A stretch of DNA of 64,000 nucleotides from an uncultured virus (IMG/VR IMGVR_UViG_3300031857_015178) (taxonomy: Duplodnaviria; Heunggongvirae; Uroviricota; Caudoviricetes), in IMG/VR virus record IMGVR_UViG_3300031857_015178. One strand, 5' to 3'. Below are positions 3,784 to 27,645 of the stretch, piece by piece. Both the position numbers and the translations under genes were made by a program. How positions within the stretch are numbered: position 1 is the first letter of the stretch; every line of letters starts with the position of its first letter. Below the pieces are notes generated by a model. That model saw nothing but the letters and a program-made list of their open reading frames with translations. It did not search any database and was not told the DNA's origin.

Positions 3784-3871
3784 GCGAGTGAGACTTGGTA
3801 GTCAGAGGAGTCTTATAAACTCTTTCCGCCAGATTAGCGGCTTTGAGGTGGTTCGAATCCACCCACTCGTA
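3784..3871 (+). tRNA. atypical tRNA with TAT anticodon (Ile) and long variable arm
   Basis: GCGAGTG/CACTCGT acceptor, loop CTTATAA, GGTGG-TTCGAAT-CCACC T-arm. Confidence 0.7.
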
Positions 3872-3875
3872 CCTT

Positions 3876-3948
3876 GCTCGTTTAGCAATCTGGTGAATGC
3901 ACCGATCTCATAAATCGGCATAGGTGGGATCGTTCCCCACAACGAGCA
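3876..3948 (+). tRNA. tRNA with CAT anticodon (Met or Ile2)
   Basis: CCGAT-CTCATAA-ATCGG arm; non-canonical T-loop ATCGTTC. Confidence 0.8.
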
Positions 3949-3973
3949 TAGGACAGAAACTCTTCTGTCCACC

Positions 3974-4002
3974 TTGACTTCTTCAAGTCAAACCCTTATA
4001 AT
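3974..4002 (+). promoter_or_regulatory. sigma70-type promoter
   Basis: TTGACT-17-TATAAT; TTGACTT/AAGTCAA palindrome. Confidence 0.75.
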
Positions 4003-4024
4003 ACTAAGGTCAACATTCAATACA

Positions 4025-4240
4025 ATGACTCTCACAGCAAAATTCAAGAAAGACGTTCAAACCCTCCGTGGAGCAGCAAATGGCGATTTCTACCTTGATG
4101 TAAAGAATCCGAAACTCTACAAAAAGGTTCGCCGTTACTATGAAAACGAAGGTGTAGTGTTCTCTGGTGATCCTCTGGACGACTATGAAATGCTTATGGA
4201 ATATGTTCTTGCAGATCTTGAATCCGTTGAGGTTGCATGA
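4025..4240 (+). CDS. hypothetical protein
   Basis: ATG 4025 downstream of the promoter. Confidence 0.7.
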   Translation: MTLTAKFKKDVQTLRGAANGDFYLDVKNPKLYKKVRRYYENEGVVFSGDPLDDYEMLMEYVLADLESVEVA

Positions 4241-4485
4241 CAACACGACTTCCCAAAGTTCTTTTGGAACGTGAAGGATATCGCTTCGTAGAGGTAGGTA
4301 TTCTTGAAATCAACGGTAATCCAGATTACCGTATGCAAAAACAAAACGAATACACCAAACGCTGGAATGACATTTATCTTTTTGATAATGGTCTACAATG
4401 TACTACTGCTATGGAAGACCTTGACTATGCGCGTTGGTTAGACCCCGATAGGGTTCCTTGTTATGTGAGAGACGATGATGAGTAA
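4237..4485 (+). CDS. hypothetical protein
   Basis: ATGA overlap, GAGG RBS. Confidence 0.7.
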   Translation: MTTRLPKVLLEREGYRFVEVGILEINGNPDYRMQKQNEYTKRWNDIYLFDNGLQCTTAMEDLDYARWLDPDRVPCYVRDDDE

Positions 4486-4533
4486 ATAGTCACGGATGGA
4501 CTTTAACAGCACTGGTCGGGAGCAAAACCCCTT

Positions 4534-4767
4534 ATGTCTAAAACCGATTTGCTTAGGTGGATTGGAAATATTCTCCTTATAATTGGTTATCAGACTATGT
4601 TATGGGGAGAATTTAAATATGGTTTAATGATAAAGGTTGTTGGAGGATTACTCACAGTACCCTTTGCTATTAAACTTAAACTTTGGGATGTACTATTCTT
4701 ATGTGCATTCTTTGGTATTACCGAGATATCAAAGTTAGCCCAACTTTTCTTAGTTTCTCAAAACTAA
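4534..4767 (+). CDS. small membrane protein inserted in the modular RNA
   Basis: 77 aa with about three hydrophobic segments. Confidence 0.6.
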   Translation: MSKTDLLRWIGNILLIIGYQTMLWGEFKYGLMIKVVGGLLTVPFAIKLKLWDVLFLCAFFGITEISKLAQLFLVSQN

Positions 4768-4821
4768 GTGGTGGAGTCAAAATGACCCTATTAACACACA
4801 CATACACACTGGAGTAAAATT

Positions 4822-5028
4822 ATGACACCTTATCAACTTCGCTTTGAAGTCTTCAAGCAAGCATATGCTATGCTAAATGATCATTTTAGTATTGAATATG
4901 ATACTGCTCGTGTTTGGAATGATAATCCGTTAAACACAGTGAAAATGGATTATCCAGAGTTTCCAACTTTGTCGGATGTACTCAATCAAGCAGAAGCAAT
5001 TAATTATTTTGTTTCTGCTGCAAAGTAG
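4822..5028 (+). CDS. small hypothetical protein inserted in the modular RNA
   Basis: GGAG RBS; TPYQLRFEVF...FPT...VL..AE.IN.FVS. Confidence 0.7.
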   Translation: MTPYQLRFEVFKQAYAMLNDHFSIEYDTARVWNDNPLNTVKMDYPEFPTLSDVLNQAEAINYFVSAAK

Positions 5029-5130
5029 GTTTCTTGCCATTCCTTAAAAAGGCAAGTGGTGCGGATGGGATAACTCCCGCCTGGTTTCCAATTTCCAGTC
5101 AAAGAATTGGTGGCGAGCCTGAGTTACATA

Positions 5131-5166
5131 AGATGGGTTGCATAAACCCATCTTTTTTTGTATAAT
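5131..5166 (+). terminator. intrinsic terminator overlapping a sigma70 promoter
   Basis: AGATGGGTT/AACCCATCT plus T run; TTGCAT-17-TATAAT. Confidence 0.75.
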
Positions 5167-5192
5167 ATATACTAAGAGTAATTTATTCATCT

Positions 5193-6260
5193 ATGAGTGA
5201 CTATAAGAAAACGGCACTTGTTCTTGGTGCTGGTGGTTTTATTGGAAGCCACATGGTAAAAAGACTGCGGAAAGAAGGTTATTGGGTCCGTGGTGTAGAT
5301 CTTAAATATCCAGAATTTTCAATTTCTGAAGCAAATGAGTTTATTCAGGGAGATCTGAGAGACGCTAATTTTGTGGAAAGAGTGCTTCAGTTTAAAGGAT
5401 ATCTCGGCAATTTCTATCACTTTGTAGCATCTCAATATATTGATACTTTTGATGAAATCTATCAGTTTGCTGCTGATATGGGTGGTGCAGGATTTGTTTT
5501 TTCTGGTGAGAATGATGCTGACATTATGCATAATTCTGCAAGTATTAATTTGAATGTCCTTGAGTCTCAGAGACAGTTGAATGACTTTAAGGGAGTAAAC
5601 AAAACTAAGATTTTTTACTCTAGTTCTGCTTGTATGTATCCAGAACACAATCAATTAGACCCAGATAATCCAGATTGCCGTGAAGATTCAGCATACCCCG
5701 CAAATCCAGATTCTGAATATGGTTGGGAGAAGTTGTTCTCAGAGCGGTTGTTTTTCGCTTATAATCGTAATTATAGGATCCCTGTTCGGGTTGCTAGGTA
5801 TCATAATATCTTTGGACCAGAGGGAACTTGGGAAGGAGGTAGAGAAAAAGCGCCAGCAGCAATCTGCCGTAAAGTTGCCTACCTTCCTGAGGAAGGTGGA
5901 TCCATCGAAGTGTGGGGAGATGGCCTACAAACTCGTTCCTTCCTGTATATTGATGAATGCATTGAAGCAACCTGCAGATTGATGGATAGTGATTTTATGG
6001 GACCAGTTAATATTGGTTCTGAAGAAATGGTAACCATTGATGAACTTGTTAATACTGCATCTAAAGTCTCAGGTAAAAACGTAGAAAAAGAACATATCCT
6101 AGATGCTCCTCTTGGAGTACGTGGTCGTAATTCTAACAATGATCTTATTCGTAAAAAACTTGGATGGGATTATTCTCAGACACTTGAGGAAGGAATTGCT
6201 AAAACTTACTCATGGATTAACAATCAAATTCTAAAAAAAGATTCTGAAACTTCTTCTTGA
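5193..6260 (+). CDS. NAD-dependent epimerase/dehydratase (GDP-mannose 3,5-epimerase-like, WcaG family)
   Basis: GAGGFIG, AADMGG, YGWEK (YxxxK), GGREKAPAA. Confidence 0.92.
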   Translation: MSDYKKTALVLGAGGFIGSHMVKRLRKEGYWVRGVDLKYPEFSISEANEFIQGDLRDANFVERVLQFKGYLGNFYHFVASQYIDTFDEIYQFAADMGGAGFVFSGENDADIMHNSASINLNVLESQRQLNDFKGVNKTKIFYSSSACMYPEHNQLDPDNPDCREDSAYPANPDSEYGWEKLFSERLFFAYNRNYRIPVRVARYHNIFGPEGTWEGGREKAPAAICRKVAYLPEEGGSIEVWGDGLQTRSFLYIDECIEATCRLMDSDFMGPVNIGSEEMVTIDELVNTASKVSGKNVEKEHILDAPLGVRGRNSNNDLIRKKLGWDYSQTLEEGIAKTYSWINNQILKKDSETSS

Positions 6261-18543: not shown

Positions 18544-18581
18544 AAGAGGGGCTTGACCCCTCTTTATTTTTCCTATATAAT
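18544..18581 (+). terminator. terminator hairpin overlapping a sigma70 promoter
   Basis: AAGAGGGG/CCCCTCTT; TTGACC-17-TATAAT. Confidence 0.7.
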
Positions 18582-26183: not shown

Positions 26184-26231
26184 AAATAGGTAAACAAATG
26201 TTACGAGTTTCTCACAACTCTTAACATTAAC

Positions 26232-26340
26232 AAACACCCGCTAACCGAGACCTATGGGTGTATAAGAACGTCTCTCATATCCTGCCTGAGGGTGGCGGGA
26301 ACATAGTAACTCCACCATTTCCCTGATGGTCTTACTAACA
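26232..26340 (+). ncRNA. PhotoRC-II-like structured leader of psbA
   Basis: GAGAC/GTCTC, TCCTGCC/GGCGGGA and ACCAT/ATGGT stems with TGAGGG/CCCT complementarity; position matches the known cyanophage psbA leader. Confidence 0.7.
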
Positions 26341-26350
26341 GTTTAAAACA

Positions 26351-27645
26351 ATGACTGCTACACTTTCACGTCAACAATCACAATCGAATATTTGGGAACA
26401 GTTCTGCAACTGGGTAACTTCAACCGACAACCGCCTCTATGTGGGTTGGTTCGGCGTTCTGATGATTCCTTGCCTGCTTGCTGCTACAACTTGTTTCATT
26501 ATCGCCTTCATCGGCGCACCACCTGTCGATATCGACGGTATCCGCGAACCAGTAGCTGGTTCTCTAATGTACGGAAACAACATCATCTCTGGTGCTGTTA
26601 TCCCTTCGTCCAACGCAATTGGACTGCACTTCTACCCCATCTGGGAAGCTGCTTCACTTGATGAGTGGCTTTACAACGGTGGTCCTTTCCAACTCGTTGT
26701 TTTCCACTTCCTCATCGGCATCTATGCCTACATGGGTCGTGAATGGGAACTTTCTTACCGTCTAGGTATGCGTCCTTGGATCTGTGTTGCTTACTCTGCA
26801 CCTGTTGCTGCTGCTTCTGCAGTGTTCCTGGTCTATCCTTTCGGTCAAGGTTCTTTCTCTGATGCAATGCCTCTTGGTATCTCTGGTACGTTTAACTACA
26901 TGCTTGTGTTCCAGGCAGAACATAACATTCTGATGCACCCCTTCCATATGCTTGGAGTTGCTGGTGTCTTCGGTGGTTCTTTGTTCAGTGCAATGCACGG
27001 TTCGCTGGTTACTTCCTCGCTGGTTCGTGAAACTACCGAGCAAGAGTCGCAGAACTATGGTTACAAGTTCGGTCAAGAAGAAGAGACTTATAACATCGTT
27101 GCTGCTCATGGTTATTTTGGACGCCTTATTTTCCAATATGCTTCCTTCAATAACTCACGTTCTCTGCACTTCTTCCTTGCTGCCTGGCCTGTTGTCGGTA
27201 TCTGGTTTACTGCCCTTGGTGTTTCTACGATGGCTTTCAATTTGAATGGCTTTAATTTCAATCAGTCAATCGTTGATAGTCAGAACCGTGTAGTTAACAC
27301 CTGGGCTGATGTACTTAACCGTGCTGGTCTCGGAATGGAGGTAATGCACGAGCGTCAAGTTGTGCTTTGCGCTCTTTAAATCGGATGAATTGCTGGAAAC
27401 CCCAAGTGGGCAATCAGCAGCCAAGTCCAGAGTACACTCTGGAAAGGTTCAGAGACTACCTGAGGGATATAGTTCCCTTAATAACAGGAATAAGCGTCCG
27501 ACACCAGAAATGGTGATGATATAGTCCAATCCTGGTAGTAATACCAGATAGTTATGGGAAGTTTAAGAATGCACACAACTTCCCTCTTGACCTTGCAGCA
27601 GCAGAAGCAACACCAGTTGCCTTGACTGCTCCCGCAATCGGTTGA
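26351..27645 (+). CDS. psbA: photosystem II D1 (exons 26351-27355 and 27568-27645; 360 aa after splicing)
   Basis: D1 sequence; splicing restores [15 protein letters not shown]. Confidence 0.97.
27356..27567 (+). mobile_element. group I intron (212 nt) in psbA
   Basis: Follows exon U and ends in G; IGS GTTGTG..GCGCTC pairs with both exons; AATTGCTGGAA, AATCAGCAG, GTTCAGAGACTA and GATATAGTCC core elements. Confidence 0.93.

What the first reader, a model, noticed from the sequence alone, without database searches (positions are those of the whole stretch)
4488..5159. Modular manA/wcaG-like RNA with protein genes slotted between its repeats
Seen: the repeated unit is (GG)TTTC, a 6-8 bp stem with a TTCY...AAA loop, then TGGYG, usually followed by a small hairpin. 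Stems covary (CTTAGTTT/AAACTAAG, CTTGCC/GGCAAG, CCAATT/AATTGG), and the loops can pair upstream (AGG/CCT, CTGG/CCAG) as pseudoknots. ORF 4534-4767 starts right after module 0 and stops inside module 1; ORF 4822-5028 stops at the first bases of module 2. A terminator and new promoter (5131-5166) separate the RNA from the epimerase gene. From memory, manA and wcaG motifs are described as contiguous putative 5'-UTR elements of unknown function. Inference: the modules act as independent units, such as cassette boundaries, translation or stability elements, or parts of a trans-acting RNA, rather than a leader for the downstream gene.
Basis: partly seen in the sequence, partly recalled or inferred. 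Interest (0 to 1): 0.75.

Follow-up and report, generated by a model that had tools for sequence, protein, structure and literature searches.

The report
Modular wcaG RNA with passenger genes
In this cyanobacterial virus the catalogued "wcaG RNA" is the fixed end of a longer chain of small folded RNA blocks, and related viruses slot small protein genes between the front blocks or leave them out; what the blocks do is still unknown.

Summary
The window is from a T4-like cyanophage. Rfam places the known wcaG RNA at 5025-5124 (96.2 bits); manA is absent. wcaG is only the last two of four RNA blocks between 4488 and 5121. Each block is a left hairpin or pseudoknot, a UGG|Y junction and a G/C hairpin. 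In 109 distinct related arrays the chain has 2-4 blocks in a mostly fixed order. Of 79 complete chains, 70 end within 60 nt of an intrinsic terminator, whose loop and tail usually hold a promoter-like -35/-10 for the next unit, mostly sugar genes. Small genes are optional inserts: 39 of 79 complete arrays hold a gap of more than 110 nt between blocks (37 with a called ORF), and 40 have none. The slot of ORF 4822-5028 holds another gene family, or nothing, in relatives. The wcaG pair itself is never split (61 of 61). Stems and pseudoknots covary strongly. The block overlapping the end of ORF 4534-4767 lacks the pseudoknot, and block 0 has a different left half. The front blocks are therefore separable units with passenger genes. 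Whether the array also controls the downstream sugar genes is open: no antiterminator pairing was found. Function is inferred only. This scan noted extended wcaG forms before, on other DNA.

The parts
3974..4002 (+). sigma-70-like promoter (TTGACT, 17 nt, TATAAT); probable start of the transcription unit that carries the array
   Evidence: 11 of 12 matches. A consensus match only; read against the sequence.
4237..4485 (+). ORF82, conserved upstream gene (phrog_481); its stop lies 2 nt before block 0
   Evidence: A homologue lies upstream of the array in many loci.
4488..4531 (+). Block 0 (L1-R1). Hairpin AGUC/GACU with 7-nt loop (4488-4502), A-rich tail ending in CUGG (4512-4515), then G/C hairpin R1 (4516-4531).
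   Evidence: Hairpin covariation in relatives: 30 of 43 non-bait sequences have a 4-bp stem with a 7-nt loop, against a shuffle mean of 7.8.
4516..4771 (+). F1 cassette (256 nt): R1 variant, ORF77 and the L2 hairpin. It is bounded on both sides by TGG^T; removing it would leave an L1-R2 block as found in relatives.
   Evidence: Comparison; architectures.
4534..4767 (+). ORF77 (family F1, phrog_2318), a small hydrophobic protein (by eye). Its last codons are the 5' arm and loop of module 1.
   Evidence: Coding signature: 44, 26 and 67 of 75 codon columns vary at positions 1, 2 and 3. Homologues in 63 phage records.
4745..4789 (+). Block 1 (L2-R2). UUUUC, 8-bp stem 4749-4756/4761-4768, UGG 4769-4771, bulged hairpin R2 4772-4789. 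No pseudoknot partner.
4794..5026 (+). F3 cassette: CA-rich leader with GGAG, then ORF68 (4822-5028). It sits inside the short linker between R2 and the next pseudoknot strand.
   Evidence: The same slot is empty or holds F2 in relatives. Closest F1 relatives (95% identical) lack it. No match in 50,697 phage records and none in PHROGs or Pfam.
5025..5124 (+). wcaG RNA (Rfam RF01761) = blocks 2 and 3. Block 2: pseudoknot AGG 5027-5029 with CCU 5042-5044, stem 5033-5038/5051-5056, UGG 5057-5059, hairpin R3 5060-5080. Block 3: pseudoknot CUGG 5081-5084 with CCAG 5095-5098, stem 5088-5093/5105-5110, UGG 5111-5113, R4 5114-5121.
5130..5166 (+). Intrinsic terminator (10-bp stem, U run 5155-5159) that also holds a promoter-like site: TTGCAT 5138-5143, 17 nt, TATAAT 5161-5166.
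   Evidence: The same composite is printed for 69 of 80 loci, many with TTGACA in the loop. Promoter use is inferred.
5193..6260 (+). NAD-dependent epimerase/dehydratase, first gene of about 13 kb with no further strong + strand terminator until 18544

Best explanation
Positions 4488-5166 are the back part of a roughly 1.15-kb early transcription unit of a T4-like cyanophage (promoter-like site 3974-4002, terminator 5130-5159). The stretch carries an ordered chain of four autonomous RNA folding blocks. Each block is a left element, a single-stranded UGG|Y junction and a G/C hairpin. The left element is either a small hairpin with an A-rich tail or an H-type pseudoknot built as 5' strand, UUUC, stem, loop strand, AAAGA, stem. 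The last two blocks are the Rfam wcaG RNA and behave as one indivisible core tied to the terminator. The front blocks are optional and separable. The protein genes between them (ORF77, ORF68) are passengers, inserted at a block junction or in a linker so that every RNA fold stays intact.

Shown: the folds, their covariation, the order and variable number of blocks, the optional genes, and the constant terminator with its promoter-like end.

Inferred: the blocks act at the RNA level, in cis, on the transcript that carries them. They would be structured intercistronic or 3'-end elements that set the fate of this early RNA at its end (protection or processing, and what happens at the terminator). 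They would not act as a classical ligand-switched terminator/antiterminator leader. At the DNA level their repeated conserved cores would give the phage's homologous recombination the footholds that add, drop and swap blocks and cassettes, in the manner described for PeSL motifs of T4-type phages.

The confidence given is for the whole statement. The anatomy and the optional genes I hold at about 0.9; the cis RNA-fate role at about 0.35.
For: wcaG match. Covariation of stems and pseudoknot and of the block-0 type hairpin.

Array grammar: 124 loci gave 109 distinct arrays, 79 of them complete, with 2 blocks (12), 3 (17) or 4 (50). 40 of the 79 have no gene inside and 39 have a gap of more than 110 nt. 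R3 to L2-R4 is never split, 61 of 61.

Same slot, different occupants: F2 20, F3 5, F3+HNH 1, empty 50.

Insert borders respect the folds. Close relatives, 95% identical in block 0 + F1 and up to 93% in wcaG, lack ORF68, while their flanking genes are in one case only 69-71% identical.

RNA-library contigs of three runs from two studies join 4780 to 5073 with 66 other letters, i.e. a form without ORF68 in the same samples.

70 of 79 complete arrays have a terminator within 60 nt, and the -35/-10 is embedded in it.

No locus-specific complementarity links the terminator's 5' arm to the array: mean longest match 6.54 against 6.56 in permutations.

One wcaG above the cut-off per genome in 3 whole phage genomes. 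Another terminator-promoter composite in the window (18544-18581) has no blocks in front.

PeSL motifs as published: PMC4122927 (passages read) and PMC2839356 (listing and start of abstract only).
Against: No experiment and no usable transcript-end data. The RNA contigs show presence in RNA libraries only, and DNA carry-over is not excluded.

The gene after the terminator is a sugar-nucleotide or glycan gene in 58 of 67 loci, and three arrays lead straight into an ORF without a terminator. Both fit a leader role.

They are therefore related phages with shared gene order, and the frequencies are not population estimates.

My block parser is anchored on the TGG[TC][GC] junction, so the constancy of the junction is partly built in.

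Single-sequence energies are unremarkable. A stability or processing role has no direct support.
Confidence: 0.45

Rival explanations
1. Leader or gate for the glycan island. The array, or at least the wcaG pair, controls read-through of the terminator at 5130-5159 into the roughly 13-kb sugar-gene block. It would do so either as a riboswitch (the 2010 proposal) or as a put/EAR-like RNA that makes the transcribing polymerase resistant to terminators.
For: The last block always lies about 13-29 nt before the terminator. The downstream gene is a sugar-nucleotide or glycan gene in 58 of 67 loci: 40 epimerase, 14 cytidylyltransferase-like, 2 GT11 and 2 mannose-6-P isomerase cupin. There is no further strong + strand terminator until 18544. 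Three arrays lead directly into an ORF. Weinberg 2010 rates wcaG 'y' for cis-regulatory and 'y' for switch (PMC2864571, passages read). The absence of an antiterminator pairing fits a polymerase-modifying RNA. That the epsC motif of the same paper later proved to be such an element is recalled, not checked.
Against: The terminator carries its own conserved -35/-10, so the island need not depend on read-through. No expression-platform pairing was found. The block number varies and genes sit inside the array. Epimerase genes occur with only a single block (Sf-CH5) or with none (P-TIM68). Shared synteny of related phages could explain the gene association.
Confidence: 0.27
2. Trans-acting stable RNA. 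The array is cut out of the early transcript or left as its 3' end. It then works as a sponge or decoy, each block binding one copy of a protein or RNA (in the manner of CsrB/RsmZ), possibly the 3' NCCA end of tRNAs.
For: The blocks are repeated with invariant single-stranded motifs (UGGYG, GUUUC), vary in number and end in a terminator. The array lies in the tRNA gene region: 13 tRNAs in the window, the last ending at 3949. Block 0 starts 0-1 nt after a tRNA in L054, L069/L089 and L090, and a tRNA follows the array by 35-61 nt in 6 loci. UGGYG is complementary to C/G-R-CCA, which is my own reading.
Against: No promoter of its own was found directly before block 0; the upstream ORF stops 2 nt before it. 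Genes lie inside the array in half of the cases. No CsrA gene was found in 3 records searched, one a 21%-complete fragment. No stable RNA species has been shown.
Confidence: 0.17
3. Dedicated cassette system. The blocks are recombination sites, like integron attC sites, or RNA-level excision signals that move the ORFs.
For: The F1 cassette is bounded by the same 4 bases (TGGT) on both sides. ORFs are swapped at the same slots. An HNH endonuclease gene sits in one slot (L076) and in the homologous region of P-TIM68.
Against: No integrase or recombinase is associated. All blocks are in direct orientation and under RNA-level selection: pseudoknot covariation is meaningless for a DNA site. 40 of 79 arrays carry no ORF. 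The joints in RNA-library contigs carry other letters and are relatives' variants, not excision products.
Confidence: 0.04

Closest known systems
wcaG RNA motif (Rfam RF01761; Weinberg et al. 2010, PMC2864571)
   Same: Positions 5025-5124 are a full-length, high-scoring member. The setting is the same: a T4-like cyanophage, upstream of an epimerase (wcaG-type) gene.
   Different: The catalogued motif is 98 nt and is described as a putative 5'-UTR element. Here it is the constant end of a 2-4-block array with other block types (L1, R1, R2). Protein genes lie between the front blocks, and a terminator-promoter composite lies between the motif and the gene. The paper's Additional files 1-3, which hold the detailed description, could not be read here.
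PeSL composite promoter-terminator motifs of T4-type phages (Arbiol et al. 2010, PMC2839356; Comeau et al. 2014, PMC4122927)
   Same: Both have a stem-loop terminator fused to a sigma-70-type promoter with a 17-nt spacer. Both lie in variable regions beside small ORFs that differ between relatives. Both have a proposed role as footholds for modular shuffling.
   Different: PeSLs are DNA or transcription signals without a conserved folded RNA in front. Here a covarying pseudoknot array precedes the composite, and the swaps occur at the RNA blocks as well. The passages I read do not mention cyanophages (0 occurrences).
manA RNA motif (RF01745)
   Same: It is an orphan cyanophage RNA from the same 2010 study and occurs in the same genome region of relatives (P-TIM68 locus L005, 169.6 bits).
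   Different: It is a different, larger multi-stem fold. There is no match in this window.
Multi-unit protein-sponge sRNAs (CsrB/RsmZ type) and tandem structured 3'-UTR elements (recalled from general knowledge)
   Same: Variable numbers of similar small folds in tandem, ending in a terminator.
   Different: No CsrA was found in the phage genomes searched. The blocks here are ordered and of distinct types, lie inside an mRNA, and have genes between them.
T-box antiterminator UGGN / RNase P GGU contacts with the tRNA 3' end (recalled)
   Same: An invariant single-stranded UGGY between two helices, close to tRNA genes and to a terminator.
   Different: There is no Stem I or specifier, no antiterminator alternative and no T-box match in Rfam. 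The resemblance is a lead only.

Membership tests
wcaG RNA (RF01761) | Covariance-model score at or above the gathering score (42 bits) | tested here: met
   96.2 bits, E 4.3e-17, model positions 1-98 of 98, at 5025-5124
wcaG RNA (RF01761) | Two UUUC-stem-UGGYG hairpins joined by a G/C hairpin, with covarying stems | tested here: met
   Alignment of 59 distinct sequences: 99.5% of cells paired, 11 of 19 pairs with compensatory changes
wcaG RNA (RF01761) | Acts as a cis-regulatory 5'-UTR element or riboswitch of the downstream gene | not testable with these tools
   For: the gene association (58 of 67). Against: the terminator-promoter in between and no antiterminator pairing.
wcaG RNA (RF01761), applied to modules 0 and 1 | Gathering score for the upstream modules | tested here: not met
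   Module 1 region 4704-4783 scores 21 bits (E 0.42). Module 0 has no match. They are related building blocks, not wcaG RNAs.
manA RNA (RF01745) | Covariance-model match | tested here: not met
   None at gathering in 64 kb. None at E<=10 in 3900-5700. Positive control in L005, 169.6 bits.
PeSL (promoter-early stem-loop) | Stem-loop terminator combined with -35, N17 and -10 of a sigma-70-type promoter | tested here: met
   Stem 5130-5154, U run, TTGCAT (3 of 6) + 17 nt + TATAAT (6 of 6), read. The same layout is printed for 69 of 80 relatives, many with TTGACA. Promoter activity was not tested.
PeSL (promoter-early stem-loop) | Flanks ORFs that differ between related phages | tested here: met
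   Variable ORFs upstream and variable first gene downstream
T-box riboswitch | Stem I with specifier, plus an antiterminator that competes with the terminator | tested here: not met
   No Rfam T-box match. No terminator-specific complementarity.
Integron-type cassette array | Integrase and attC-type inverted-repeat sites after each cassette | tested here: inconclusive
   The blocks are direct repeats selected as RNA pseudoknots and half of the arrays hold no ORF. No recombinase gene was seen among the ORFs parsed in the loci, but I made no dedicated integrase search.
CsrB/RsmZ-type sponge | A CsrA/RsmA partner is present | tested here: not met
   PF02599 found in 0 of 3 records (2 whole phage genomes and a 21%-complete fragment), while controls were positive. 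Host genomes were not searched.

The most novel reading that the evidence does not exclude
Each block is a docking site for the 3' end of a tRNA. The invariant single-stranded UGG-Y-G/C between two helices is the complement of N72-R73-CCA: UGGUG for CACCA, UGGCG for CGCCA, and UGGUC for GACCA as in the tRNA-Pro encoded 1 kb upstream. This is the contact used by T-box RNAs and RNase P. The array, encoded beside the phage's tRNA genes and sometimes starting 0-1 nt after one, would then sense, hold or shield tRNA ends during infection, and the number and type of blocks would set which tRNAs are bound.
Probability: 0.07. Interest if true: 0.85.

Novelty: new variant of a known kind. Interest (0 to 1): 0.55.

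Why it matters
For sixteen years wcaG has been carried in Rfam and in phage annotations as a 98-nt putative riboswitch or leader of unknown function. Four findings change which experiments make sense:

- It is the constant end of an ordered, variable chain of autonomous pseudoknot and hairpin blocks.
- A terminator with an embedded promoter separates it from the "regulated" gene.
- No antiterminator pairing exists.
- Small genes ride between the front blocks.

The experiments that follow are termination or antitermination assays, RNA-end mapping and RNA-partner searches, rather than ligand screens on the 98-nt piece alone.

The locus also gives a compact natural case in which selection keeps RNA folds intact while genes are inserted and lost at their borders. 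That bears on how variable regions of T4-like phages acquire new small genes.

Tried and rejected
- **manA likeness:** rejected.
- **Own genome:** the search is not possible because the assembly is not held. The nearest record, G001, is a 21%-complete fragment with no wcaG match.
- **Bacterial genomes:** None has the hairpin in front (0 of 119). These are chance matches, so the scan says nothing about hosts.
- **RNA runs:** only Logan contigs of metatranscriptomes were on offer. They cover 4379-4770 and 4929-5115 without differences and show a variant lacking ORF68. They cannot give ends, strand or level, and DNA carry-over is possible. Parts without cover are not interpreted. The sample labels (freshwater, riverine) are not used as a habitat claim.
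- **Excision or circularisation:** no joint fits it.
- **Antiterminator pairing:** none beyond permutation.
- **Long-range pairing across the array:** RNAalifold on 12 gene-free arrays gave only local hairpins plus a 2-bp long-range artefact.
- **Pairing of the junction GG with CC after R1/R3** (predicted): set aside, because it is invariant and clashes with the covarying pseudoknot.
- **CsrA partner:** not found.
- **Fixed-column test of the first pseudoknot:** not possible on the MAFFT alignments (A1, A3), because its loop strand sits at shifting columns. It was tested by the permutation script instead.
- **Literature:** searches for wcaG, manA and cyanophage (8 papers), for 'wcaG RNA', 'wcaG motif' and RF01761 (5 papers) and for cyanophage transcription start sites and noncoding RNA (7 papers) found no description of a modular array or of genes inside it. 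Subscription journals and the unreadable supplements of PMC2864571 are not covered.

Full report
**What the window is.** Rfam finds wcaG, a group I intron, PhotoRC-II and ten tRNAs in the window. The region matches 300 cyanophage records, best Synechococcus phages Bellamy, S-SM2 and SynMITS9220M01 at about 72% identity. This is a T4-like cyanomyovirus.

**Checking the observation.**
- Module 1 (4745-4789) is a further UUUC-stem-UGGUG hairpin followed by a small bulged hairpin. It is only a sub-threshold wcaG match (21 bits).
- Module 0 (4488-4531) is not of that type. It is a 4-bp hairpin with a 7-nt loop, an A-rich tail ending in CUGG, and then a G/C hairpin.
- What all four share is the layout: left fold, UGG|Y junction, G/C hairpin.
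- manA is not involved (a true manA).
- Clustering is far beyond chance. Four typed blocks lie in 4488-5113, with one other, probably chance, hit on the + strand (at 2203) and none on the - strand; shuffles gave 0.43 per window.

**Are the folds real?**
- On 59 distinct wcaG-type sequences 99.5% of cells pair, against 82.9% in shuffles and 37-55% when slid. 11 of 19 pairs show compensatory changes, including two pairs of the second pseudoknot.
- A permutation test that did not use the pseudoknot for detection was run on 133 distinct units. 103 have at least 3 Watson-Crick pairs between the 5' flank and the loop, against a permuted mean of 37.7 and a maximum of 51. There are many pair types: AGG/CCU, GAG/CUC, CUGG/CCAG, CCUG/CAGG, CAGG/CCUG and others.
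- The block-0 type hairpin also covaries: 30 of 43 non-bait sequences against 7.8 in shuffles, with arms AGUC/GACU, AGAC/GUCU, CAUG/CAUG and CGUG/CACG.
- Against this, the unit that overlaps the end of ORF77 has no pseudoknot in the window, nor in 12 of the 18 homologous ORF-embedded units (my split of the list). Single-sequence energies are ordinary.

**The wider picture.** I parsed 124 loci, including the window, which gave 109 distinct arrays, 79 of them complete.
- The chain has 2, 3 or 4 blocks (12, 17 and 50 arrays).
- The right-hand hairpins come in four types in a mostly fixed order, R1, R2, R3, R4. A few arrays show R2 before R1, and one type shows R3 before R2.
- The last block is always a pseudoknot with R4 (CGWGCMUG).
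- 70 of the 79 complete arrays have an intrinsic terminator within 60 nt.
- In the loci printed the terminator's stem or loop holds TTGACA or TTGCAT, and 17 nt later, after the U run, comes TATAAT. This is the composite described as PeSL in T4-type phages (PMC4122927, passages read).
- Rfam sees only part of this. In 20 loci of varied architecture it called wcaG in 12 and missed 8 minimal arrays.
- There is one wcaG above the cut-off per genome in three whole phage genomes.
- Another terminator-promoter composite in the window (18544-18581) has no blocks in front.

**Genes between the blocks.** 39 of the 79 complete arrays have a gap of more than 110 nt between blocks, 37 of them with a called ORF. 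The other 40 have none. Counts below are over all 109 distinct arrays.
- After R1: F1 (= ORF77, phrog_2318) 29 times, a 2OG-oxygenase-like ORF 3 times, a gap with no ATG-ORF of at least 40 aa 6 times, nothing 50 times. Some of the six gaps are F1-like reading frames with ATA in place of ATG, as in L012.
- After R2: F2 (phrog_35121) 20 times, F3 (= ORF68) 5 times, F3 plus an HNH endonuclease gene once, a gap with no called ORF once, nothing 50 times.
- After R3: nothing, 61 of 61.
- F1 and F3 look coding: third positions vary most.
- The inserts respect the folds. The F1 cassette (4516-4771) brings its own R1 variant and an L2 hairpin and sits exactly at a UGG|U junction, so deleting it would restore the L1-R2 block seen in Bellamy-type phages. 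The F3 cassette sits inside the short linker between R2 and the pseudoknot strand of the next block.
- Turnover is recent. The relatives closest in block 0 + F1 (95%) lack F3. One of them, L038, is only 69-71% identical in the flanking genes.
- Contigs from RNA libraries of three runs (two studies) carry the form without ORF68.

**What does it do?** Nothing here is experimental.
- Against the classical riboswitch-terminator model: the terminator's 5' arm shows no locus-specific complementarity to the array (6.54 against 6.56). The terminator also carries a conserved promoter-like site for the next unit.
- For some link with the downstream genes: the first gene after the terminator is a sugar-nucleotide or glycan gene in 58 of 67 loci. 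The window has no strong + strand terminator for about 13 kb after 5166. Three arrays run directly into an ORF.
- The loci are related phages, however, so shared gene order may explain much of this. Epimerase genes also occur with a single block (Sf-CH5) or none (P-TIM68).
- The array lies in the tRNA region, sometimes abutting tRNAs.

My reading is that the blocks are autonomous cis-acting RNA folds of an early transcript. The wcaG pair is an indivisible core tied to the terminator, the front blocks are accessory, and the genes are passengers shuffled by recombination at the repeated cores. A gate or antitermination role and a trans-acting role remain live rivals.

**Novelty.** The motif itself is known (PMC2864571, passages read). 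Later phage papers only list it as cis-regulatory (PMC9964418, PMC12197685 and PMC9602691, passages read). My three literature searches found no account of the array, of its terminator-promoter end or of genes inside it. The supplements of the 2010 paper could not be read. Earlier notes of this scan had already seen "wcaG plus an extra module", the promoter-like site in the terminator, and pseudoknot trailers behind tRNAs, all on other DNA. New here are the optional genes, the second block type, the block order and the never-split core.

Noticed in passing
window 27346-27548 and 26222-26314: Rfam group I intron (91.8 bits) and, about 1 kb upstream of it, a PhotoRC-II RNA (76 bits). This is presumably the psbA region of the phage.
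   Followed up: no
window 3784-3873: ARAGORN calls a 90-nt tRNA-Ile (anticodon tat) directly before tRNA-Met at 3875-3949. Rfam's tRNA model did not list either at gathering. The extra length may be an intron or a long insertion.
   Followed up: no
window 3974-4240: The listed TTG start at 3974 is probably wrong. A promoter-like site (3974-4002) overlaps it, the phrog_552 match begins at residue 18, and an ATG lies at 4025.
   Followed up: partly
window 18544-18581: A second terminator with an embedded promoter-like site (TTGACC, 17 nt, TATAAT). It closes the roughly 13-kb sugar-gene block and has no RNA blocks in front.
   Followed up: partly
L128 (S-SRM01) 880-1140; L129 (ACG-2014f) 901-1131: Homologues of ORF77 lie in these records with no annotated feature under them. 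In S-SRM01 and in L012 the position of the ATG holds ATA. In ACG-2014f the gene ends in a covarying L2 hairpin followed directly by the terminator-promoter.
   Followed up: partly
L076 185-616 (- strand of the locus): An HNH endonuclease gene (PF01844, 22.4 bits against a cut-off of 21.4) sits in the array slot next to an ORF68 homologue. P-TIM68 also has an HNH gene in the homologous region.
   Followed up: partly
L002 (S-SM2, NC_015279): The feature table given for this locus is shifted by about 55 nt against the sequence (tRNAs by Rfam against the table). With the shift, the annotated hypothetical gene SSM2_190 overlaps the wcaG RNA.
   Followed up: no
L004 (Sf-CH5) 2010-2090; L019; L127 (S-CAM7): A third kind of left element: a 5-bp stem (GUCGG/CCGAC type) enclosing a 16-17-nt loop and ending in UGG. 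In Sf-CH5 it is the only block before R4 and the terminator-promoter.
   Followed up: no
L038 versus window 4237-5700: Mosaic identity. Block 0 + ORF77 is 95% identical and wcaG + terminator 93%, but the upstream ORF82 is 69% and the epimerase 71%.
   Followed up: partly
L023/L083, downstream of the array: In these loci the gene after the terminator is a CpeT/CpcT-family (phycobilin lyase) gene, not a sugar gene. A tRNA follows the array by 40 nt.
   Followed up: no
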